Shown here: in pieces, positions 3,235 to 58,460 of the stretch
How positions within the stretch are numbered: the stretch's first letter is position 1
How the letters are laid out: every line of letters begins with the position of its first letter
NCBI RefSeq assembly: GCF_009914755.1
Contig: NC_060941.1
Source: the human T2T-CHM13v2.0 reference genome, Homo sapiens
Length of the DNA stretch: 64,000 nucleotides
Reading direction: 5' to 3' (one strand)
Notes under the pieces: generated by a model
Seen by the model: the letters and a program-made list of their open reading frames with translations, nothing else
Told to the model about the DNA's origin: nothing
The model's database searches: none
Translations under genes and position numbers: made by a program

Positions 3235-4781
3235 CAAGATCATTATAATCACACCTGTACCCTCTGGTCACCAAAGGATGTGAATTTTAAGTGGAGGTAG
3301 AGGGAGAATAGGAAAACTAGATTTCACAGTGTTCCCTACTGAAACAGTAGTGAGGCCATTCTGGGTGGCCTCTGCATCTGCTTTTGTTTGTTTGCCTCTG
3401 TCTTGATTCCCTGTTGTCTGTCATTGGAAGAAAATCCGAGTCTGGACTTGGGTTGCTTCACATGGACGTTATTTTAATGATAAATGATAAAAGACAAGTC
3501 CTGAGTTTCCATGGTGGCCCTGAATAGATTCTTCTATGAGACACTGCGTTTCTTACGTATATTCTGAGACACAGGCCAGGTTCTTGTATGAGATGCCATG
3601 TTTCTTAGGTATATTCTGAGACATGGACCAGACCATGTAGCATGAACCTGATATTCTAGGAAATCTCCGCATGGGTCCTGGCGGTTTAGGACTCCCTATG
3701 CTGCATCCTGCATCTTCAATCTTAACGTCACCTTTTTTTTTTTTAACACAGAATGTTTCTTTTTTGATTTTCCAGTGATTTACAAACCTACCTCCCAATC
3801 TAGCAGTTTAACCCCTTACTACAAAACATTTCAAAATTTTAGAATGAACCAATGAGAACATGTCATGGTACTGAAATTAGGCTTCAGAACATTTTTGTCT
3901 GTCATTGCATTTGGCAGGAAGTCAGACAAGTACCGGTGATTGCCGGTTTCTTGTCTGATTTTTGCACTTCTCTGGCAAGCTGCCCCCTCTGAAGAGTTGA
4001 CTATTTGGGAGTTACTCACTGATGGTTCAGCCACTTCCAGAACCTACCCCAAGAGCAAGACTTGAAACCAACTCGCACCCTCAAAGCTCCGGAAGCCATT
4101 CAGTGTTTCCATCTTGGCTGAGTGAGTTCTTCACTGAAACTCAATTTGACTTTGACAGTCATCTAATGAGAACTCAAAAGTCATTCTTGGTTCAGCCACA
4201 GTCAAAGAACTTGCAGAGCATTCTCTGACGAGGTCCTCAAGGACAACTGAGAGAAGGTAAGATCCAAAAAGCACCTGGATCCTGACACAGGATTGCCTGG
4301 TTCTTAAGCTCTGTTTGCATCCATGGGCACTCACCGGGTTGATTGCAGCCAGGCCGATGGGCAGGAGATGAAGTGCCCAAGCCGGAATGCAAGTCAGCAT
4401 TTATTAGAGGAACCCAGTACCTACACAGGTGGAATGTGTCTAACCCATCGATGATCTTCAGTCCTGTTATATTTTCACAGATATTTTATTTCAGAGTCAG
4501 AATAACTGATGTTAAGGTACATGGGGAAGGAAGGCGGTAGCCTCATCTTTGTAGCCAACCAGCAGTATCTCATTCCCAGCCCTGCCTCCTACCTCTGTTA
4601 AAAGAGATGGGAAGAGTTGGTAGTTTTCAAGGTTCCTTGAGCTCTGCTGTTCTCTGGAGTAGTCGGCTAACCTTTCCCTGGTGGGAGAGTCAGAAACTCC
4701 AGTGTCAGCTTTAACACTTGAATTTTCTCTTCTAGAATTGGTAGTTTAGCACTTTTGCCTATATTTTCACCGAGCTGATTG

Positions 4782-4896
4782 TTTTTTTCTCATCAGCGTA
4801 TAAGTCAGTATTTTATTAAGGAATGTGGGTTCTTTTGTTTTTTTTTCTCATCGTTTTATAACTCAGTATTTTATTAGGGATGTGAGTTTTTTTGTT
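4782..4896. repeat. Diverged ~57-bp tandem duplication
   Basis: ttttttctcatc...tcagtattttatta(a/g)g(g/a)atgtg(g/a)gtt occurs twice back to back. Confidence 0.75.
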
Positions 4897-4909
4897 ATAT
4901 GGAGGACGG

Positions 4910-5207
4910 TTTTTGTTTTTTTTTCTGAAATGGCGTCTCACCCTGTCACCCAGGCTGGAGTGCAATGTTGCGATCACGGCTTACTGCAGCCTCGACCTCC
5001 CAAGCTCAAGCAATCCTCCCAGCTCAGCCTCCCAAGTAATTGGGACTACAGGCATGCACAATCATGTCTGGCTAATCCTTTCTAATTTTTGTAGAGATGG
5101 GGCATCACTTTATTGCCCAGTCTGGTCTTCAGCTCCTGAGCTCAAGTGATCATCTTGCGTTGTCTCCCAAATCACTAGGATTACAATTGTGAGCCGCCAT
5201 GCCTAGC
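4910..5207 (-). mobile_element. AluJ-like
   Basis: Diverged antisense Alu dimer. Confidence 0.8.
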
Positions 5208-5999: not shown

Positions 6000-7372
6000 T
6001 TCTTATTTTATTGAATTTCAAGGTAGATGGTGTCAGTGTCAAACTCTGTTTCCAGTCATGAATTTACAAATGTCGGTTCTCTTGAGTGCAGTTTCCCCTT
6101 CACTTTGTATTATAAAATACTTGCATCGAGCAGGGCATGATTTTGCCTGTCACCTTCTCCTGCTGAAACAGATCCAGGTGTGGCAGGGCCTGATGTTTGC
6201 CCCAGGTCTGTGTCTGGATTCTGCTCAGATCCACTGCCTTTGCCTGACAGTGCCTCTGATCTTCTCATGACTTAAACGCGATGGAAGGCTCTTGAAGACG
6301 CATTTATATTACATATTGGGAGGTACAGAAGCTCAGGTAGAGAAGGGCGAGTGCCTAGTGGGAAATTCACCTGTGCCCAGTTTCTTCTCTGCTTGGTGAG
6401 CCTGGAATGCAGAGCCCGCTCTCTGAGTCTGTGTGTGTGCCCCTCCTGCCTTTTAGATGTACACTGTGGCTCTTCCTGCCCTCCCCCTTGTCACTACTGT
6501 CCTTTGTGCCTGGGGCCCATGGCCTCCTCTGATGTCAGATCTTCTTGTTCCTGATCCTTTGCCAGAACGCCCTTGATCTTCTTGTGCTCCTCTCCAGCAC
6601 TGGCCCTCTAGGGTGGGGGGCGTTAGTGGAGGTTTCCCATATCTCCATTTTCTCTGGAAGGGAATTGGGGGAAAGTCCTGTATTTCCGTTTTCTCTCACT
6701 CTCTCAGTAGAAATTCTTCAAAGTCTAAGCTTGTAGATGATACCCGACTACAAGATTTTTACTGTGTCTTTGATTATTTTTGTTGGGATTTGTAGATTAA
6801 GATGCTGGTGGTCAAACTGCTGGCTTATCCTGTTTGATTTTATTGTTATATATGCTTGTATAGAAATTTGAAAGTGAAATTCAGAAGATAATTTTTTGAC
6901 ACCTGAGAGACAGAGTACTTCATAATTTATGTCTCATGATAGAGTGACAGATTTCTCTTAGATTTGTTTGTCTAAAACAGTAAGTATTTAGAGAAAATTG
7001 CATTCCAGGCAAGGGCATGGAATGAGCAAAGGCACAGAGGCAGGACATAAAAAATAAAAACAAAAAAACGTCAGGTGCCTGGGTGAATAGTCCAAAAACT
7101 AGACGGGCAGAGGGGAGTCTTGGGAGATCAACCAAAAGGCCTGGGCTGGGCTTCATCCAGGTGTTCAGGAAAGAGCCCGGCAGGTGTGAGCGTGTGGTTG
7201 ACATGACCCACCCTTCACAAATATTAATCTTCCTGTTGTGAAGGTAGCAGCGGTGTCATGCAACGCCTCCCAGAGTTAACCATTGAATACTTTAAAAATC
7301 ATCATATACCAGGAGCTCACCTGTGCCTGGATCAGAATAAATGACAACATAACGTGATGTCTTGAGGAAGGA

Positions 7373-50857: not shown

Positions 50858-50955
50858 AAATCCTTCGGGCTCACCCTGCAACTGTGGGATATGCTCATCT
50901 TGGAGGGCGAGCAGGTACTGTTGGGCATGGCGCATGCATCATTCAAAATACATGG
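50858..50955 (+). pseudogene. TBC-family pseudo-exon with lost AG acceptor
   Basis: ccccaca|AAA TCC TTC GGG gives KSFGLTLQLWDMLILEGEQVLLGMAHASFKIH, ending at gtaag. Contains a TBC 'LRLWD..EG'-type motif; no AG precedes the exon. Confidence 0.85.
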
Positions 50956-51326: not shown

Positions 51327-51476
51327 AGTGCCTCATGAAGCTTTCCTGGAGCACCATCTGGGAGTTTCAGGAGCGACTTTTTCAGAGCTGGGCCCCGGAG
51401 GACAACGTGGTCCTCAGGAACCTTCAAACCTCCGTGAAGGAACTCACAAGGAAACACTGGGACCTGCCACCCCCAG
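51327..51476 (+). pseudogene. TBC1D26/TBC1D3-family pseudo-exon (150 bp)
   Basis: ccctag|CLMKLSWSTIWEFQERLFQSWAPEDNVVLRNLQTSVKELTRKHWDLPPP|gtgggc; compare TBC1D3 ...[22 protein letters not shown]. Confidence 0.88.
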
Positions 51477-52902
51477 GTGGGCTCCAGCACCAAGTCTCCT
51501 CCCAAGTCACCCTCTGGGGCAGTCAGTGGTGGGGAGTGCCCTGGCCCTACCAGCCCTCCTACCTGGCCTTCCTCCTGCACCTCTTCCTCCTCTACTCTAA
51601 GAAAGTAAAATGGGTCTGCCACTCCTCAGGGCAGGCACTGAGCGTGTGTGTGCGGGACATGAGGTGCAGACAGGCAGGGGCTGTGGGCAGGACCCCCCAA
51701 CTTCCCTCCCCCTCTTTCCACATTGTCCCCATCACCCCCTCAAAGGGCCCTGAAGGGCACTGGGGCAGTCAGATCCAGGTGTGGAAGACCCCACCCCTGC
51801 CTCCAAGCAGCAGGATCCCTCATTCTTGAGTGCCCCTCCAAGCCTGTCAAGACAACAAGCCAGGAGGACAAGAGAGAATCAGTGTCCCAGATCCAGAGAG
51901 GATTTGGGCAGAGGGCACGGGGGGAAGCCCTGACCCAGAGCCAGAACCAAGAGTTCAGCCGGGCATGGGATTTGTCCAGCCCTGGCATGGGGTGGACGGC
52001 CTGGAGGGCAGAGGGAAACCCGTGCCCTTCACTTCTCACCCACTGTGGAGACAGACCCCATGCGAGGTGGCAAGGGGGCTGGGTGACAGTGAAGGTCCCT
52101 TTCACCTGAGTTCTGAGTCAGGGCTGCTGAACAGCCCTGAGGTGAGGGAGGGCGTGAGGCAGGAAGCCCTGAGCCAGCCTGAAGCCTGGGAGCCGTTTCA
52201 GGACCGACCTGAGGTTCCCTGAAAGCTCCCCCACCCCAGGCTGCACACAGCCCTCACCCTGGGATCAGCAGCTTGCAGAGGTGTCCTCAGTGTCAGGCCA
52301 GAGGACACCCGGGGACCCCAGGACTCCAGAGGCCCAGGGCTGTGGGCCCAGCCCTGGAGAGGCCCCTGAGGCCTCTGACCCCACCTGTGGGTCAGAGCCT
52401 GTCCCCCAGGGCCTGAGTCCCAGGCCCAGAGGGACCTGGCTTCAACTCGAGTTGTCCTAGGAGGACAGGGGCACTGCAGATCTCCAGGTGACCACGCAGG
52501 GCACCAGGGCACTGCAAGCCCTGATGCTGTAAGGATTCACATCAGAGAACCTGGGCAAGCCAGGCCAGAGACGCTGAGCCCGTGCAGTGATGAGGATGTG
52601 GAGGGCTGGCTCAAGGGGGTCAACAGCTGTGAACACTGCTGCCTCTTCCCGGCCTCATTGTTGCAGTGCAGGCAGTCTGCACCCCGGAGCCTGGCCCAAC
52701 AGCGCCCCGAGTGCCCTAGTCCACTATGCCAACATGGTACCCGGAGGCTTCGAGGCCCTGCCTGCTGCACCACCCGCCTCCTGGAGGCCTTGTTCTGCAG
52801 CCTAGCCCCTGCCGCAGCCACAGCAGGCACCACTGCCAAGTGCCTTCCAGCCGGGCTTCCCAGAGGACAGAGGCATCCTGCAGTCATTGCCTCAGCAGCT
52901 CA

Positions 52903-53770
52903 CACTGTGAAGATAGTTTCATCCACATTCCCATGTTCCCACCAAAGAGAATCCCTGCAGAGGGTGCTCTTGATCCTGCGGTGGGGAAAACAGCACACTA
53001 GGTGGACTCAGCTCCTTTCCCTGGCCACCATGATTGCTGGATGGGCCCACAAAGCAGCCATCAGACAGGCATGTTGGGGAAGAGCCTAAGCAATCCTGCT
53101 TGTTCCCTGACCAGACCGACACCACTGCCGAGTGCCCCATCTGCTGATGAGAGATTTGGTGTCGATCCCTGGACTGGCACCATTTCCCAGGAGGAGCGGC
53201 TGGCTACCTGTGGGCAGGCTGCCCACACTGTGGAGAGGGCTGAGATCGGCCTTCACTACGGGGAGCCCCTACCTGGACATAGACTCGCCAGCCCTGCCTG
53301 TTGCCATCACAGCAGCCCACATGGCATTGCTTGTGACCAGGGTACCCCATTCACAGTGACGGACATGCAGCAGTGGCCCTTGACTAGGGAACTAACTCTT
53401 CTCGCTACGTCACCCACCGCCTGGAAGCAACTGGACTTAGGATCGCTGTTATGCTGAAGTGGTGAGGTTGTCTTACAAGATGAATTTTATCCTTTCTACT
53501 GGAAGCCAGTGTATGGTGATGACTCCCCCACAACCAGAAGGTGTAGTTCTGAGTGAAGGTGTGAAAGTGGACGATGTTCAGTGTTGCACCGAATGTCTCA
53601 GTCACAAAGTTTTCCTATTGCCTGTCCTGGAGAAATGGAACTTTGCTGGTTGGAAGGTCTTAGGACCCAGGAAGAGTGAAGCTTCCCCCAGGGGAACACA
53701 ACAATGGTTCTATTTAATATGAGGAGACAGGACTAAGTCTGAAACCTCGGGGCATTCTCTGGTGTTCTTG
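52903..53770 (+). mobile_element. Degenerate ERV-L internal remnant (RNase H end, integrase, dUTPase start)
   Basis: Frameshifted motifs in ERV-L order: TVKI..SHQR; LSLATMIAGWAH; TAECPIC; IACDQGTPFTVTDMQQW; YVTHRLEATGL; KVFLLPV..AGWKVL; LPPG/TTM. Confidence 0.75.
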
Positions 53771-54412
53771 AGTGTTTCCATGTAAAGGAAGTCAAGTAAC
53801 TTGCCACAAAGCTTTGCCACAGAAGCATCTGAAAAAGGAGGGGGCAGAACTATTCAGAACTCAGAGGTTTCAGAACCAAAGATGAGGCCGAGAAGATTCC
53901 TGACCCGCTGAGGGCAAGGGAAGTATGTGGGGGCGGCTGGGAGAGGATGTTATAGAGTCCGCCATGGCCTCGTGACCTGTCACAGAACCGTGCACTTTAA
54001 TAGCTGTGCACATCTTCTCTGCACTGATTATAGTATTTCTTTGCCTTTGCTACTCTCCACACAGGGAGCTTGCTACAAAATGCACATAACCACAGCCCGG
54101 GTCTTGCAATCCAAGCCTGGCAAGGATTCAGCATGTCAAGGGCTTCAGGTCTGAAGGTCCATGGCTGTCCTGAATCCTGGATATCACCTTCTTGCCCAAA
54201 AAAGGAGGGACGAGGCTCAAACCGCAGCAGGCCACTCACAGAAAGGGACGAAACGTTGAGTGCGTGGCCTCCCTGACACCCAGACAAGACTTTGGGCCCA
54301 AAGCCAGGCTGCAGCTCTGGCCACTGACTCAGACCAGGGACGCCCCCATGCAGGCCGGTGTCCCCTGGCCGCTCTTCTCCCTCCTGCCACCCTCTCTTCG
54401 GCTGCTTGTGTC

Positions 54413-54418
54413 AATAAA
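54413..54418 (+). terminator. Plus-strand AATAAA convergent with the USP22 end
   Basis: gtcAATAAAag; usage unproven. Confidence 0.4.
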
Positions 54419-54452
54419 AGGAAAACTGGCCAGTTCTCAGAGAAAATGTAGC

Positions 54453-54458
54453 TTTATT
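54453..54458 (-). terminator. USP22: USP22 distal poly(A) signal
   Basis: tttatt on the plus strand. Confidence 0.7.
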
Positions 54459-54599
54459 ATGACATAGGAGAGACTACAAAGCACTGGGGGGGAGGAGGAG
54501 TGACACAGCTCCTCAAAATGGAAGGGGAAAGGAAGAGTAAACATCTTGGTAAATAAAGTCTCCAACCACAGCACAGTCATTGGAATTTTTTTCTTCATT

Positions 54600-54605
54600 T
54601 TTATT
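54600..54605 (-). terminator. USP22: USP22 alternative poly(A) signal
   Basis: tttatt on the plus strand in an AU-rich context. Confidence 0.6.
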
Positions 54606-55575
54606 TTCAAACTTACAGTAAACAAAACAATCACTTAAATTGTCAAAAGAACAGCAATTTTACACAATGAAGAGCATACACACCAAGCCAAAATACAATA
54701 GCACTCAGGTCTATATGTTGCAGTGGTGCTGGCGCTGGAGGGAATGCCCAGGGAGGCTGCAGTGCTCACCACGAAGCCCAGGTCCACGGAGGGAGCCAAG
54801 GTCCACAGAGGGCCCCGGGGCCAGAGGGAGGCCGCCCACACTCCCAGCACATCACCTGCCTCAAAGCACTCCCTTCAGGCATCTGAAGAGGGAAAGGCCA
54901 TGTGTCTTCCTGGGAGGCACTGAAAGGCCAGCCAGCATCTCCAAAATGCAGGCCATTTTAACACTGCTGTGAATGTGCTGGGGTCACCAAGGGGGCCCCT
55001 TAGTGGTCAGATGCACTTTGTCACAATGTACACCTACATGGGGTGATTACTAGGCAACGGGAGGTTTCCTGAATTTCACAGCCAGATGGGGAGCTAAAAG
55101 AAATTCCTGAACCCAACGCGTAAATATTTTGTTCTGACAAAGTAAATTCACAAGAACACATCAAACACAAGACCTAATGCAAGGGGCAGTGCCAGGGCCG
55201 CCGCCGCCTCCTGTGAGCAGCTCTTCAGCAGCAGGCATCAGGTAACTGCTTAGAACGGCAATGCCACAGTGGAATAAGGGGGACTAACTTGGATACGAAA
55301 GTTTAGAATAATGCCCACCAAAAATCCATGTGACTCCATCTCTCTTCCCAGTTCTAATGTTCTCAGAACAGCAGCCACCCCTGAATGCAAGTGGAGACAG
55401 GAAGGGGACTAGGGGTTGGCCGGCGGGAGGGGAGGCAGGGTCTGGCCAAACCCAGGCAGCTGCCAGAAAGCCTTCTGCACTCCGCAAGACACCCCAGTAA
55501 ACTGGGGCGTCCCAAGGTGGCAAGCCTTCATGAAGGCACTGCCCAGCTCACAATCCTGTGGGCCAACTTCAGTCA

Positions 55576-55900
<325 letters not shown>

Positions 55901-56249
55901 GACTGCACATCCTCAAAGGAGATCTTCAAAGCACTGTCACCCAAACAGCAGAACTTGGTCACATGGGACCATTTCTGAAAATCTCGGCCCATCTCTGTTT
56001 CTCTGGTAATTCATTTTATAAAACATGCTTCCATGTGAATTCTTTAAGTGCAGAAAAACAACAGAAAATGAACAGAGCACGTGGGCAAGAAACCGCATCC
56101 CTCAGGCTTCTGCCACACATGATGGTTCTGCGGGCTGTGATTGCCAAGTCCTGTGTTTTCCACACTGAGCAGTGAGTAGCAGCTGCCACTGTCACTACCC
56201 CCTCCCCAGCCCAGCCAGCTAAGGAGCTGGGTCTGGTCCCCACCAGCTT

Positions 56250-56473
56250 CTCCATGGCCTGTGAGCTAAGAATAGGTTTCACGTTTTTAAATAGTTAAAA
56301 AAAAAATCTAAGTTTCTTGACACAGAACAATATATGTCATTCAGATTTCTGTGTCTAAAAGTTGTACTAGACACAGCCACATCTCTGTACTATTTATGGC
56401 AGAGACCATACAGCCCACAGAGCCAACAGTGTTTACTCCCTGGCTGTCTATGAAAACATCTGCCCACCGCTGA
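56250..56473. mobile_element. MER58-like hAT DNA transposon remnant in the 3'UTR
   Basis: tggcctgtgagctaagaataggtttcacgtttttaaa...gcagagaccatacagcccacagagcc. Confidence 0.6.
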
Positions 56474-57871
56474 GACAGATGATCCTGTTCCTGCAGGACT
56501 GAAGAAGCCTCAGTTCAGATGCTGCTGGGGCTCCTGGGACAAGCACAGCCCGAGACACACTTGCTTCATAAACTGTATTTCAGTACTTTTCCTCCCCCTT
56601 GTCCCTAGTTTCTAATTTCTCAGTGGACAAATGGACAAACCATCTCTGTTTGAATTTGAATACACAGATACATGCAAGATATCTTACAAGAAACAATGCA
56701 CATCCTTCTACTTTCTCTTTCAGCTCTGCTGACAAGCTCAATCACGGTGTCATTTTACTGCCACCACGCCCGAAAGTACACCAAATGTAAAGCAGAGGCA
56801 GACGAGACAAGATGCAGGCTCCACCAGAGGCCACTCCAGCTTCGCGACCAACACCCTTGGCTGCCAGGCAGCGGTAGCCAGGCAATGGGATAGAAGGCAA
56901 AGAAAATACGAGGGACAGAACCCATCAGACACCGGCAGACACTGCATTTACTCCAGACTGAGATGACAGACACACCGTATGAGCTGCAGCACAACTCTCC
57001 TCCGCTGCGCCCACTGCCAGCCACCAGCAGACACCAAGGCACCCAGAGGAGCCAGGCACACAGGGCGGGCAGCAACATAAACGGCACCCATTAAAAAGCA
57101 AGACTCGCTCTTGAGACTAAAGGAGAAGTTACCTAAATTTCTGTATAAACTCAGTAATTCATTCACTTTACTAGTATTACATTTATGAAATTCACCTTTG
57201 TGGAAAAAGGAGCGGGAGAGGGATAAGAAAATGCCTGTTTCTAGAAAACCGCGAGATGCTTCCACGTGCAGCTTGATGCTGTTACCTGCAGAACAGACAC
57301 GCTTGAAAACGCGACGTAGTGTCCGTACTTCCGAAGCTAGGAGGCTGCTTCACAGCCGCTGAGAAAATGGAGGTGAAGAGTTCCATACTCTCCGTATTTT
57401 AACACTAAAACACCAACAGAAAGGCATCTGCAAGGCCCTCTGTCCCGCACACTACACCTCTGTGTCCAGCTTACTGCTTTCATGGACCCATAATCTTACA
57501 GCAGGTAGGGGCCTTTCCACACCGAGTGCTGGGGAACGCCAGGCAGCGGTCACTCTGTGCTGTGAGGCCCCCGTTGCACCCCCATGTCATGACACAAGAG
57601 ATGTTCTGGTGACGGGTGTACGCTGCTCCTCCCACCCAGAGCACACCCCTCATCTCATCCATCTTCAAAGCAGCTCCAGGAGCCTCCCCGTCCGTGTGGT
57701 CCATCCCGACCCGATGGGTCCCAGGTGCAGAGGGGCCACATCTGCATGGGAGGTGGTGTCACCAGGCCGGGGAGGCGGCGGGAGACTTGGGGGAGGGGGG
57801 GGCCAGGGAGGATCACTTTGTGAGGCTTGCCAATGCATTGCCTTTGTTTTTCTGACCAGCTGCAGATAAGG

Positions 57872-57914
57872 CTACTCGTATTCCAGGAACTGTTTGTGAT
57901 AGAACAGCAAGTAC
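57872..57914 (-). CDS. USP22: USP22 last coding exon (YLLFYHKQFLEYE*)
   Basis: Acceptor ctccacag|G TAC TTG; TAG at 57872-57874. Confidence 0.97.
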
Positions 57915-58460
57915 CTGTGGAGGCAGAGAGAGGGAGGAGGCTCACCTCTAACTCCTAAGACAGGAGCCAGAACAACCCACCCTACACAAAAGCCTACGTG
58001 CTCTGCGCTCTGCACAGGTCGGCCAGGCCCGAGTTGATGGTTTTGGCTTTTTAGTCCGCAAGGAGGAAAGAGTGCTTCACTGGCTGGTGGCACTGGCCCT
58101 GCCCATCTCTGCAGCCCGACCACCACCCCCACCTGCCACGAGGTCACCCATTGCCTCACCCAACCTCCCACAGCCTCTCCCCCACTTGTGACAGCCCCAC
58201 CCTTGTGCAGAGCCCACTGTTTTCAAGTGGCTCCGTCCAGATCCACCTCATCGCCCTGAAGGCTGTCCTTTATCCCAGATTCTTCCAAATAAAACCTCTC
58301 AAGAGGGCTTGGCTTCCGTGTTGCTCAGAATGTGAAGTGCAAAGCCCTCAGGGAGTTCATGGCAGCTGGGGTCCCCCTGACCCCTGGAGGGTCAACAGGT
58401 TTCTCTATGCCATGAAGGAATGAAACTGGAAAGGAGAGGAGCTGATAAAGAACTGATGTG

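What the first reader, a model, noticed from the sequence alone, without database searches (positions are those of the whole stretch)
52903..53770. ERV-L integrase remnant suggests the TBC1D3/USP6 C-terminal segment is exapted retroviral integrase
Seen: downstream of the TBC exons the sequence reads GTISQEERLATCGQAAHTVERAEI...HGIACDQGTPFTVTDMQQW, within collinear ERV-L motifs (WAH..., TAECPIC zinc finger, YVTHRLEATGL, dUTPase-like FLLPV..AG..VL..LPPG). From recall, ERV-L integrase reads GTIPRGDQPATWWQVDY...HSIASDQGTHFTAKEVQQWAH, and the TBC1D3 tail reads [23 protein letters not shown]...[18 protein letters not shown]. This copy is intermediate between the two and shares tgagatcggc with TBC1D3 as I recall it. 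Inference: an ERV-L insertion ancestral to the family supplied, in the integrase frame, part of the last coding exon of hominoid TBC1D3 and the USP6 junction region. This locus would preserve the less-deleted ancestral state. I do not know of a prior description.
Basis: partly seen in the sequence, partly recalled or inferred. Interest (0 to 1): 0.8.

Follow-up and report, generated by a model that had tools for sequence, protein, structure and literature searches.

The report
ERV-L pol remnant encodes TBC1D3 tail
A decayed piece of an ancient ERV-L retrovirus gene sits in the last exon of a TBC1D3-like gene beside USP22, and the same piece supplies the last 68 amino acids of human TBC1D3 and the exon end where USP6 joins its two parent genes, with no sign that any integrase activity survives.

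Summary

- **ERV-L remnant.** Window 52901-54043 (+) is a 5'-truncated, internally deleted ERV-L pol fragment: RNase H end, integrase, start of dUTPase. Four natural genomic ERV-L copies align to it at E 2e-28 to 6e-41. The real score is 132.7 bits against at most 0.5 in 100 dinucleotide shuffles.
- **Link to TBC1D3 and USP6.** The human TBC1D3 last exon aligns to window 53170-53439 (E 2e-10) and the USP6 exon to 53169-53443 (E 3e-20).
- **One ancestral fragment.** All family copies share the same ERV-L 5' breakpoint and the same 14-bp, 1-bp and ~48-bp core deletions.
- **Progressive shrinkage.** The spacing between the two integrase motifs falls from 216 nt (ERV-L) to 153 (this window), 136-137 (TBC1D3 pseudogene copies) and 93 (human TBC1D3).
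- **Coding use.** A ~0.9-kb deletion fused the TBC1D3 reading frame to the integrase remnant, so residues 482-549 of the 549-aa protein are ERV-L-derived DNA. In USP6, about 18 codons and the splice donor of the junction exon are ERV-L-derived.
- **Published 43-bp deletion.** This human deletion returns the SDQGTPF stretch to the integrase frame.
- **No integrase domain.** Pfam rve finds nothing, so this is exonisation, not a preserved enzyme.

I found no prior description in six searches.

The parts
52901..54043 (+). 5'-truncated, internally deleted ERV-L pol remnant in sense orientation. The alignment is strong at 52901-53720 and weak at 53720-54043.
   Evidence: nhmmer with four single natural copies: L047 4507-5923 to 52901-54043, E 6.3e-41; L046 to 52902-53722, E 3.9e-37; L044 to 52903-54016, E 6.4e-35; L045 to 52902-53747, E 1.6e-28. 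Alignment printed. Shuffle control.
52903..53000 (+). Remnant of the C-terminal end of RNase H (TVKIVSS..HQ), read within the annotated CDS frame.
   Evidence: The alignment starts at L047 4507, inside the L047:4270-4650 ORF that hits Pfam RNase_H.
53006..53144 (+). Remnant of the integrase N-terminal zinc-binding region, split over two frames: TQLLSLATMIAGWAH at 53006-53071 and ..TAECPIC at 53061-53144.
   Evidence: blastx: 52% identity over 23 aa and 67% over 12 aa to the L044 upstream ORF (joint E 0.034); 41% over 32 aa to the L046 ORF. High-confidence DNA alignment.
53176..53376 (+). Remnant of the integrase catalytic core in the frame of ORF 53002-53457 (GTISQEERLATCGQAAH ... HGIACDQGTPFTVTDMQQW), lacking a net 63 nt relative to ERV-L copies.
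   Evidence: blastp against a natural integrase ORF, E 5e-9. blastx. Spacing 153 nt against 216 nt. DNA alignment.
53406..53438 (+). YVTHRLEATGL, the remnant of the integrase stretch that reads HHPEAAGLIE in ERV-L copies, here in a different frame from the core.
   Evidence: ORF 53388-53465. ERV-L ORF sequences are in the alignments. DNA alignment columns 340-380.
53269..53538 (+). Integrase core to C-terminal part (..VVLQDEFYPFYWKPVYGDDSPTTR).
   Evidence: blastx against the L044 and L047 integrase-dUTPase ORFs, E 5.8e-8 and 7.7e-8.
53612..53689 (+). Remnant of the start of the dUTPase domain (FLLPVLEKWNFAGWKVLGPRKSEASP).
   Evidence: blastx: 42% identity over 26 aa to L044 ORF residues 151-176 (E 4.8 alone). 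Pfam dUTPase covers residues 158-253 of that ORF. The stretch lies inside the high-confidence DNA alignment.
53170..53439 (+). Segment homologous to the 3' coding part of the human TBC1D3 last exon and to the end of the USP6 junction exon.
   Evidence: nhmmer: L051 2206-2436, E 2.2e-10; L049 2205-2481 to 53169-53443, E 3.3e-20. tblastn of the named human protein P0020, residues 479-525, to 53170-53370, E 7.7e-4.
52501..52902 (+). Sorting-nexin (SH3-PX-BAR type) exon-1-like segment abutting the ERV-L remnant. The SH3 half lies at 52568-52669.
   Evidence: L010 1506-1931, E 9.2e-34, with homology ending at 52902. Pfam on the L010 ORF finds SH3, PX and BAR_3_WASP_bdg. blastp gives 59% identity over 34 aa, E 7e-10.
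52461..53089 (+). Last coding part of the predicted gene LOC124900389. Its final 63 codons (52901-53089) are ERV-L-derived DNA.
   Evidence: Coordinates come from the hub's annotation line in the finding.

Best explanation
Window 52901-54043 is a dead fragment of an ERV-L (class III endogenous retrovirus) pol gene. It runs from the end of RNase H through integrase into the start of dUTPase. It lies in sense orientation in the terminal exon and 3' region of a TBC1D3-family paralogue, tail to tail with USP22.

The same fragment was already present in the common ancestor of the TBC1D3, USP6 and chr17p TBC-like copies. It had the same 5' breakpoint against a sorting-nexin-like segment and the same small core deletions.

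It became protein-coding by deletion-driven fusion of reading frames, not by keeping a viral function.
- **TBC1D3 lineage.** A ~0.9-kb deletion removed the sorting-nexin-like piece and the RNase H and zinc-finger remnants. It joined the upstream ORF (..SCWV) to the integrase remnant at ..ISQEDQ. The last 68 residues (482-549) of human TBC1D3 are therefore translated from ERV-L DNA.
- **Frame.** The stretches [16 protein letters not shown] and [27 protein letters not shown] are read in the original integrase frame. The second is in frame only after the 43-bp deletion found in the human cluster copies.
- **USP6.** Translation uses about 18 ERV-L-derived codons and then a GT splice donor inside the ERV-L remnant, which joins to the USP32-derived exons.
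- **This window.** It keeps the least deleted state. Its own predicted protein ends in 63 ERV-L-derived codons.

What is shown: the homologies, breakpoints, spacings and frames. What is inferred: the order and dating of the deletions, and that the tail is a disordered appendage rather than a functional integrase relic.
For: **Reference copies are ERV-L-type.**
- Their ORFs give RNase_H plus rve (L046, 5.5e-10 and 6.9e-15) and rve plus dUTPase (L047, 7.5e-13 and 7.5e-12; L044, 2.3e-06 (28.2 bits, below Pfam's 32.6-bit cut-off) and 1.2e-10).
- dUTPase C-terminal of integrase is the MuERV-L/ERV-L arrangement (PMC1224870, passages).

**Window against ERV-L.**
- nhmmer gives E 1.6e-28 to 6.3e-41 with 4 of 4 copies.
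- blastx HSPs on the + strand are collinear.
- A genome-wide six-frame search returned 144 matches, 136 of them outside the TBC1D3-family loci. Three of those 136 reach E<=0.001 on their own.
- 22 of 22 stored dispersed loci show the ..HSIASDQGTHF.. context on re-examination.

**Shared ancestry.**
- The ERV-L homology starts within 4 nt of the same reference position in the window, L002, L062, L065, L061 and L071: 6 of 6 copies that keep this part.
- The 14-bp and 1-bp deletions and the ~48-bp core of the large deletion are shared by all copies that retain those columns. The group-A, USP6 and TBC1D3 copies lack 16 bp more.

**TBC1D3 and USP6.**
- Alignment to the window is, and tblastn.
- Direct nhmmer of ERV-L copy L045 to USP6 L049 2196-2488 gives E 1e-6, and to TBC1D3 L051 2293-2467 gives E 7.6e-4.
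- The 892-958-bp gap in L051 relative to L062, L061 and L065 has its 3' edge at L051 2216.
- The named human protein P0020 carries AISQEDQ at residue 482 of 549.
- Gorilla USP6 P0067 reads ..[24 protein letters not shown]... Its exons map on L048 at 4625-5038 and 6795-6869.
- The donor G|GTGAGG is at L049 2271/2272.

**Spacing.** It is 93 nt in 9 of 9 cluster copies and 136 nt in 2 of 2 distal copies. This matches the 43-bp deletion of PMC11610581 (passages).
Against: - No Pfam rve, RNase_H or dUTPase hit for any window frame at E<=10, none for TBC1D3 P0020 at E<=1, and no integrase among PDB sequence hits.
- The direct link between TBC1D3 and ERV-L is weak on its own. There are two collinear blastp HSPs at E 0.019 and 0.021.
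- nhmmer hits L051's ERV-L part cleanly with only 1 of 4 reference copies (L045). The L046 hit is inflated by an Alu, and L044 and L047 give none. The case for TBC1D3 therefore rests mainly on transitive homology through this window and the pseudogene copies.
- Between the 14-bp and 1-bp deletions the window is out of the integrase frame, so the protein alignment there is not meaningful.
- A frame coincidence has a prior of 1 in 3 per segment, so 'in the integrase frame' needs no selection.
- PMC11610581 calls the C-terminal extension human-specific. Predicted chimpanzee, orangutan, macaque and green-monkey proteins nevertheless also end ..FPPGF. I could not resolve this without their genomes.
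Confidence: 0.88

Rival explanations
1. The integrase-derived tail is a true domestication. The retained integrase-frame residues, including the SDQG motif, form a selected functional module in TBC1D3 and USP6, such as a binding or regulatory motif.
For: The tail ORF is intact in 9 of 9 human cluster copies. Two stretches are in the original integrase frame. The 43-bp deletion is nearly fixed in cluster copies according to PMC11610581 (95%, passage).
Against: The cluster copies are very recent duplicates, so their shared ORF says little. No rve domain is detected. 123 of the 216 nt between the two motifs are gone in human TBC1D3. The first catalytic-Asp position is E in TBC1D3 and A in the window. 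PMC11610581 reports that the novel C-terminus is predicted disordered. USP6 discards all but about 18 codons.
Confidence: 0.1
2. The ERV-L remnant in this window is real, but its resemblance to the TBC1D3 and USP6 tails is chance or low-complexity similarity.
For: Direct comparison of TBC1D3 with an ERV-L integrase ORF gives only E of about 0.02 per HSP. Direct nhmmer gives E 7.6e-4 with one reference copy.
Against: The nucleotide alignment of L051 and L049 to window 53170-53443 gives E 2.2e-10 and 3.3e-20. The alignment is continuous through intermediate copies at 82-87% identity. Indels are shared. The hits are collinear with the upstream TBC exons.
Confidence: 0.01
3. Separate ERV-L insertions, or gene conversion from a dispersed ERV-L copy, placed similar pol fragments in different TBC1D3-family members. 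On this view the window is not an ancestral state.
For: ERV-L pol copies are numerous: 136 dispersed matches. The family lies in segmental duplications prone to gene conversion (search listing: PMC10172114).
Against: The junction with the sorting-nexin-like segment is identical and the ERV-L start position is the same in 6 of 6 copies. The 14-bp, 1-bp and ~48-bp deletions are absent from 3 of 3 natural ERV-L copies aligned. The chr17p copies also carry the end of the USP22 3' exon, so they were copied from this locus.
Confidence: 0.01

Closest known systems
TE exonisation: transposable-element or ERV fragments recruited into coding exons of primate-specific genes
   Same: A decayed retroelement fragment lies inside annotated coding sequence and also supplies a splice donor. 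It was recruited by indels and has no preserved viral domain.
   Different: Here the fragment is an internal pol (integrase) piece rather than an Alu or LTR. It is shared by a whole core-duplicon family, and it is read partly in the original viral frame.
NYNRIN / CGIN1, a mammalian gene with retroviral RNase H and integrase-derived domains (recalled, not checked here)
   Same: A host gene carrying coding sequence derived from retroviral pol integrase.
   Different: By recall, NYNRIN keeps recognisable RNase H and integrase domains conserved across mammals. TBC1D3, USP6 and this window give no rve hit and keep only short stretches.
Human-specific 43-bp deletion and novel C-terminus of TBC1D3 (PMC11610581, passages read)
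   Same: It is the same 43-bp difference: spacing 136 nt against 93 nt, in cluster against distal copies. It gives the same 41-residue C-terminal extension ending ..FPPGF.
   Different: A term search of that paper's main text finds no 'ERV', 'LTR' or 'transposable'. The retroviral origin of the tail and the return to the integrase frame are additions made here. Its supplementary figures S8 and S9 were not seen.
USP6 (Tre2) as a chimera of TBC1D3 and USP32 (Paulding et al. 2003, seen only as cited in PMC4949931, PMC5381560 and PMC6920530; the paper itself is not held)
   Same: USP6 shares the TBC1D3-type exon up to ..WQAEHC and then continues with the USP-type exons.
   Different: The last ~18 codons and the splice donor of the TBC1D3-derived part are shown here to be ERV-L integrase DNA. 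I could not check whether the 2003 paper says so.

Membership tests
ERV-L (class III endogenous retrovirus) internal pol sequence | Significant nucleotide homology to genomic ERV-L copies | tested here: met
   4 of 4 natural copies, E 1.6e-28 to 6.3e-41; 132.7 bits against a maximum of 0.5 in 100 shuffles.
ERV-L (class III endogenous retrovirus) internal pol sequence | dUTPase located C-terminal of integrase in the reference elements (PMC1224870) | tested here: met
   L047 ORF has rve at residues 4-88 then dUTPase at 170-274. L044 ORF has rve then dUTPase. L046 ORF has RNase_H then rve.
ERV-L (class III endogenous retrovirus) internal pol sequence | Collinear remnants of RNase H end, integrase zinc finger, integrase core and dUTPase start on one strand | tested here: met
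   52903, 53006-53144, 53176-53538 and 53612-53689, all on the + strand.
ERV-L (class III endogenous retrovirus) internal pol sequence | Assignment to a named Repbase or Dfam subfamily, and flanking MLT2-type LTR | not testable with these tools
   No Dfam or RepeatMasker library is available. LTRs were not looked for.
Retroviral integrase catalytic domain (Pfam rve, PF00665) | Profile match to rve | tested here: not met
   0 families for the window frames at E<=10. TBC1D3 P0020 hits only RabGAP-TBC models.
Retroviral integrase catalytic domain (Pfam rve, PF00665) | Full-length core with the D, D, E catalytic residues | tested here: not met
   63 nt (window) to 123 nt (human TBC1D3) of the 216 nt between the motifs are missing. 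The first Asp position reads A (window) or E (TBC1D3). The HHPEA..E stretch is out of frame in both the window and TBC1D3; the TBC1D3 stop falls within it.
TE-derived coding exon (exonisation) | TE-derived DNA lies inside annotated coding sequence | tested here: met
   Named human protein P0020, residues 482-549. Gorilla USP6 P0067, residues 481-498, mapped on the human locus L048. LOC124900389 CDS 52461-53089 from the hub annotation overlaps 52901-53089.
TE-derived coding exon (exonisation) | Transcript or protein evidence that the exon part is expressed | not tested
   Only the passages of PMC11610581 stating that Iso-Seq isoforms carry the ORF were read. No expression data were analysed here.
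Domesticated retroviral gene | Purifying selection on the virus-derived residues across species | not tested
   No primate genomes are available. Only predicted proteins were seen.

The most novel reading that the evidence does not exclude
The progenitor of the whole TBC1D3/USP6 core-duplicon family was a three-part mosaic assembled beside USP22. Its parts were TBC exons, a sorting-nexin (SH3 and low-complexity) exon fragment, and an ERV-L pol remnant. Successive deletions then drew integrase-frame codons into the protein: about 0.9 kb before the catarrhine split, and 43 bp in humans. On this reading the human-type C-terminus of TBC1D3, a gene tied to cortical expansion, is retroviral in origin and was selected for a new function. 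The ERV-L-derived splice donor would also be what allowed the TBC1D3-USP32 fusion that made USP6.
Probability: 0.12. Interest if true: 0.7.

Novelty: new member of a known kind. Interest (0 to 1): 0.45.

Why it matters
TBC1D3 is a heavily studied hominoid gene family, linked to cortical progenitor expansion and to extreme copy-number variation. USP6 is a hominoid-specific oncogene.

Knowing that the TBC1D3 C-terminal 68 residues and the USP6 junction exon end, including its splice donor, come from an ERV-L integrase remnant gives a concrete origin for sequences so far treated as 'novel'. It ties the published human 43-bp deletion to a retroviral reading frame. It also gives a dated series of structural markers for ordering the family's duplications: the sorting-nexin|ERV-L junction, the 14/1/48-bp deletions, the extra 16 bp, the 0.9-kb deletion and the 43-bp deletion.

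It does not by itself imply a new function.

Tried and rejected
- **Pfam on seven window frames.** Nothing relevant. The one hit, DUF4527 at E 0.0044 and below its cut-off, was ignored.
- **PDB sequence search with ORF 53002-53457.** Only a weak BHRF1 match at E 0.06, taken as chance.
- **The search for homologous proteins, near and longer, with the window ORF.** It returned only unnamed proteins 68-98% identical to the window ORF (P0002-P0006), presumably from paralogous or primate orthologous loci, and no ERV-L pol or TBC1D3. The reference copies therefore had to come from the window's own genome.
- **DNA search of the genome with 52400-54400.** It did not return the TBC1D3 genes. They were found only with the USP6 exon ORF as protein query.
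- **Minus-strand blastx hit GMWMKLSSQCELLR at 52931-52890 (E 7.3).** It resembles an ERV-L RNase H stretch but was treated as chance.
- **Low-confidence protein alignment columns.** The window's VERAEIGLHYGE was rejected as an integrase-frame match after the DNA alignment showed a frame offset between the 14-bp and 1-bp deletions.
- **Fetching eight more dispersed loci.** The chr6, chrX, chr11, chr16 and chr7 relatives of the upstream exon part therefore remain unexamined.
- **Paulding et al. 2003.** Could not be read.
- **Literature searches.** TBC1D3+ERVL (1 paper listed; not opened, judged irrelevant from title and abstract start), TBC1D3+integrase (9, none relevant by title), TBC1D3+'endogenous retrovirus' (20; two opened, neither relevant), USP6+HERV-L (0), TBC1D3+HERVL (0), and TBC1D3+'transposable element'+coding (42, none relevant by title).
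Full report
**1. The observation**

- ORF 53002-53457 holds GTISQEERLATCGQAAHTVERAEI...HGIACDQGTPFTVTDMQQW.
- TAECPIC closes ORF 53034-53147.
- AGWAH lies in ORF 52379-53089.
- YVTHRLEATGL lies in ORF 53388-53465.
- FLLPV..AG..VL lies in ORF 53441-53722.

Pfam found no rve, RNase_H or dUTPase in any of these frames, even at E<=10. The PDB sequence search gave only a chance-level BHRF1 match. Profile methods therefore see no viral domain here, and the question had to be settled by comparison with real ERV-L copies.

**2. Reference copies**

The window's own genome could be searched. A six-frame search with the 151-aa ORF gave 144 matches at E<=10, from 150 scored of 307 candidates.
- Eight matches are the window itself and TBC1D3-family loci: chr17 at 16.83, 16.87, 28.37, 42.18 and 5.03 Mb, and chr1 at 15.4 and 245.9 Mb.
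- The other 136 are scattered over the chromosomes, and nearly all cover only residues ~93-146. Three of the 136 reach E<=0.001 on their own.
- On re-examination by tblastn, 22 of 22 stored dispersed loci show the context ..HHGIPHSIASDQGTHFTAKEVQQWAH... Several (L031, L032, L034, L038) also show ..YGTIPQGDQPATWWQVDY.. upstream.

I fetched four such copies with 10 kb each. Their natural ORFs give:
- RNase_H plus rve for L046 (5.5e-10 and 6.9e-15);
- rve plus dUTPase for L047 (7.5e-13 and 7.5e-12);
- rve plus dUTPase for L044 (2.3e-06, 28.2 bits, below Pfam's 32.6-bit cut-off, and 1.2e-10);
- separate rve and RNase_H ORFs for L045.

A dUTPase C-terminal of integrase is the MuERV-L/ERV-L arrangement (PMC1224870, passages read). 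I could not assign a Repbase or Dfam subfamily.

**3. The window segment is ERV-L pol**

nhmmer was run with each natural copy singly as query.

| Reference copy | Window span | E-value |
|---|---|---|
| L047 | 52901-54043 | 6.3e-41 |
| L046 | 52902-53722 | 3.9e-37 |
| L044 | 52903-54016 | 6.4e-35 |
| L045 | 52902-53747 | 1.6e-28 |

- The real segment scores 132.7 bits. The maximum in 100 dinucleotide shuffles is 0.5, and the reversed sequence gives no hit.
- The printed alignment is high-confidence at 52903-53075, 53117-53145, 53170-53235, 53305-53440, 53490-53545 and 53640-53715. It is weak beyond ~53720.
- blastx against the natural ORFs gives collinear + strand hits:

| Window span | Window peptide | ERV-L counterpart or score |
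|---|---|---|
| 53006-53071 | TQLLSLATMIAGWAH | TQLLSPATPVISQWAH |
| 53061-53144 | ..TAECPIC | identical TAECPIC |
| 53176-53376 and 53269-53538 | integrase core and C-terminal part | E 1e-6 to 6e-8 |
| 53612-53689 | FLLPV... | start of the dUTPase domain |

The element runs further 3' than 53770.

**4. TBC1D3 and USP6**

The USP6-type exon ORF at chr17:5.03 Mb (L048/L049, 352 aa) was used as query and recovered the TBC1D3 genes.
- Nine copies lie in the two chr17 clusters (37.1-37.4 and 38.9-39.05 Mb).
- Two distal copies lie at 60.9 and 63.1 Mb.
- Pseudogene-like copies lie at chr17 28.37 and 42.18 Mb and chr1 15.4 and 245.9 Mb.

The 306-aa ORF of L051 ends ..[73 protein letters not shown]. 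The database protein named 'TBC1 domain family member 3L isoform 2 [Homo sapiens]' (P0020, 549 aa) carries this tail from residue 482.

Several comparisons tie the tail to the window:
- nhmmer of the window against the loci aligns L051 2206-2436 to 53170-53439 (E 2.2e-10) and L049 2205-2481 to 53169-53443 (E 3.3e-20).
- tblastn of P0020 on the whole window gives three collinear hits: two TBC exons at 50861-50953 and 51365-51478, and residues 479-525 at 53170-53370.
- Direct comparison with ERV-L is weaker. ERV-L copy L045 hits USP6 at E 1e-6 and TBC1D3 at E 7.6e-4. L046's hit is inflated by an Alu, and L044 and L047 give none.
- blastp of P0020 against a natural integrase ORF gives two collinear HSPs at E 0.019 and 0.021.

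**5. One ancestral fragment, progressively shortened**

- The ERV-L homology starts within 4 nt of the same reference position in the window, its 86%-identical paralogue L002, and L062, L065, L061 and L071. That is 6 of 6 copies that keep this part.
- In a MAFFT alignment with three natural ERV-L copies, every family member aligned there shares a 14-bp deletion. Every member that retains the column shares a 1-bp deletion. The ~48-bp deletion core is shared by all. The pseudogene, USP6 and TBC1D3 group lacks 16 bp more.
- The distance from the TI(P/S)QGDQ codons to the SDQGT codons falls step by step:

| Copy | Spacing (nt) |
|---|---|
| In-frame ERV-L copies | 216 |
| Window and L002 | 153 |
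| L062 | 137 |
| 2 of 2 distal TBC1D3 copies | 136 |
| 9 of 9 cluster TBC1D3 copies | 93 |

- The window and L002 also keep the integrase C-terminal part and the dUTPase start. Homology of the TBC1D3 group to the window stops at ~53440.
- The chr17 15.65 and 16.82 Mb copies carry about 1 kb of the end of the USP22 3' exon. This marks the USP22-adjacent locus as their source.

**6. How it became coding**

Relative to L062, L061 and L065, TBC1D3 lacks 892-958 bp, and the 3' edge of this gap is at L051 2216.
- The missing stretch includes part of the continuous ERV-L homology, so it is a deletion in TBC1D3 and USP6.
- The deletion joins ..SCWV to ..ISQEDQ.
- The predicted titi-monkey protein P0071 ends ..PGTMGQA, like the undeleted copies L061 and L062. 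Macaque and green-monkey proteins have the fused form. I infer from these predicted proteins alone that the deletion happened after the split from New World monkeys and before the catarrhine radiation.

By the column arithmetic, [16 protein letters not shown] is in the integrase frame. The 14-bp deletion then shifts the frame, and a 1-bp deletion restores it.
- In the distal (136-nt) copies a further 1-bp gap shifts the frame again, giving ..TALSHNVGMDFPALQCAQH and a stop.
- In cluster copies the extra 43-bp deletion makes the total loss 123 nt. [19 protein letters not shown] is therefore again in the integrase frame.
- The last ~20 residues are ERV-L-derived DNA read in another frame.

This 43-bp deletion and its 41-residue extension are described as human-specific and predicted disordered in PMC11610581 (passages). 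A term search of that paper's main text finds no 'ERV', 'LTR' or 'transposable'. Its supplementary figures were not seen.

**7. USP6**

Gorilla USP6 (P0067) reads ..[32 protein letters not shown]...
- Residues 360-497 map to L048 4625-5038, and residues 500-524 map to the next exon at 6795-6869.
- In the human sequence the exon ends at G|GTGAGG (L049 2271/2272). This lies inside the ERV-L-derived columns.
- USP6 thus takes about 18 codons and its junction splice donor from the integrase remnant.

**8. What it is not**

No integrase domain survives.
- There is no rve hit.
- Between 63 and 123 of the 216 core nucleotides are gone.
- The first catalytic-Asp position reads A or E.
- The HHPEA..E stretch is out of frame in both the window and TBC1D3; the TBC1D3 stop falls within it.

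A frame coincidence has a one-in-three prior per segment. I therefore read this as exonisation of a dead ERV-L fragment that yields a disordered tail. I give about 0.1 to a selected function of the tail.

**9. Surroundings**

- Immediately 5' of the ERV-L edge, window 52501-52902 is homologous to exon 1 of an SH3-PX-BAR sorting nexin on chr5 (L010; Pfam). The name SNX18 is my recall only.
- The annotated CDS frame reads the C-terminal half of its SH3 domain at 59% identity (E 7e-10).
- Homology to L010 and to two chr19 copies stops at 52898-52902 and does not resume in 53900-58000. The ERV-L piece is therefore joined to this segment by a rearrangement rather than visibly inserted into it.

**10. 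Prior description**

Six full-text searches found nothing on a retroviral origin of the TBC1D3 or USP6 sequence. Three TBC1D3 or USP6 papers were checked by term search (PMC11610581, PMC6920530, PMC5381560) and say nothing about it. Paulding et al. 2003 is not held. RepeatMasker tracks and catalogue supplements could not be consulted, so an unremarked annotation may exist.

**Verdict**

This is a new member of a known kind (TE-derived coding sequence) in two well-known genes.

Noticed in passing
window 52501-52902 (SH3 half at 52568-52669): The stretch directly upstream of the ERV-L remnant is homologous to exon 1 of an SH3-PX-BAR sorting nexin on chr5 (L010; SNX18 by recall only). The predicted CDS of LOC124900389 reads half an SH3 domain in frame. 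The family's ancestral last exon therefore looks like a mosaic of TBC, sorting-nexin and ERV-L pieces.
   Followed up: partly
L011 and L012 (chr19:16.16-16.17 Mb); window about 52360-52376: Two inverted chr19 copies align to window 51912-52376 and 52345-52902 but carry ~0.8 kb between these that the window lacks. They continue the sorting-nexin-like sequence past the point where ERV-L starts in the window. Further relatives of the TBC1D3 exon-14 upstream part on chr6, chrX, chr11, chr16 and chr7 were not examined.
   Followed up: partly
window 54380-55470: The end of the USP22 3' terminal exon is duplicated at chr17:15.65 Mb (80%), chr17:16.82 Mb (74%) and chr17:16.87 Mb (88%), and in short pieces on chr10. 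This marks the locus as the source of the chr17p TBC-like copies.
   Followed up: partly
proteins P0026, P0028, P0030, P0032 against PMC11610581: Predicted chimpanzee, orangutan, green-monkey and macaque TBC1D3 proteins end ..FPPGF like the human protein. The macaque reaches this without the 43-bp deletion. The paper nevertheless describes this C-terminus as human-specific. Gene-model artefact or real difference: unresolved.
   Followed up: no
window 52607-53424: A RefSeq 'enhancer' functional element (from the hub annotation) spans the sorting-nexin-like piece and the ERV-L RNase H and integrase remnant.
   Followed up: no
window 52890-52931, minus strand: The reverse strand reads GMWMKLSSQCELLR, which resembles the ERV-L RNase H stretch GMWMDLSEWSK (E 7.3). 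It lies exactly at the ERV-L 5' edge. Probably chance.
   Followed up: no
L048/L049 (chr17:5.03 Mb): The human USP6 exon reads ..EHCGEG.. before the donor, where the gorilla protein has ..EHCRG... The gorilla protein P0067 is 1405 aa; the human USP6 protein itself was not retrieved.
   Followed up: no
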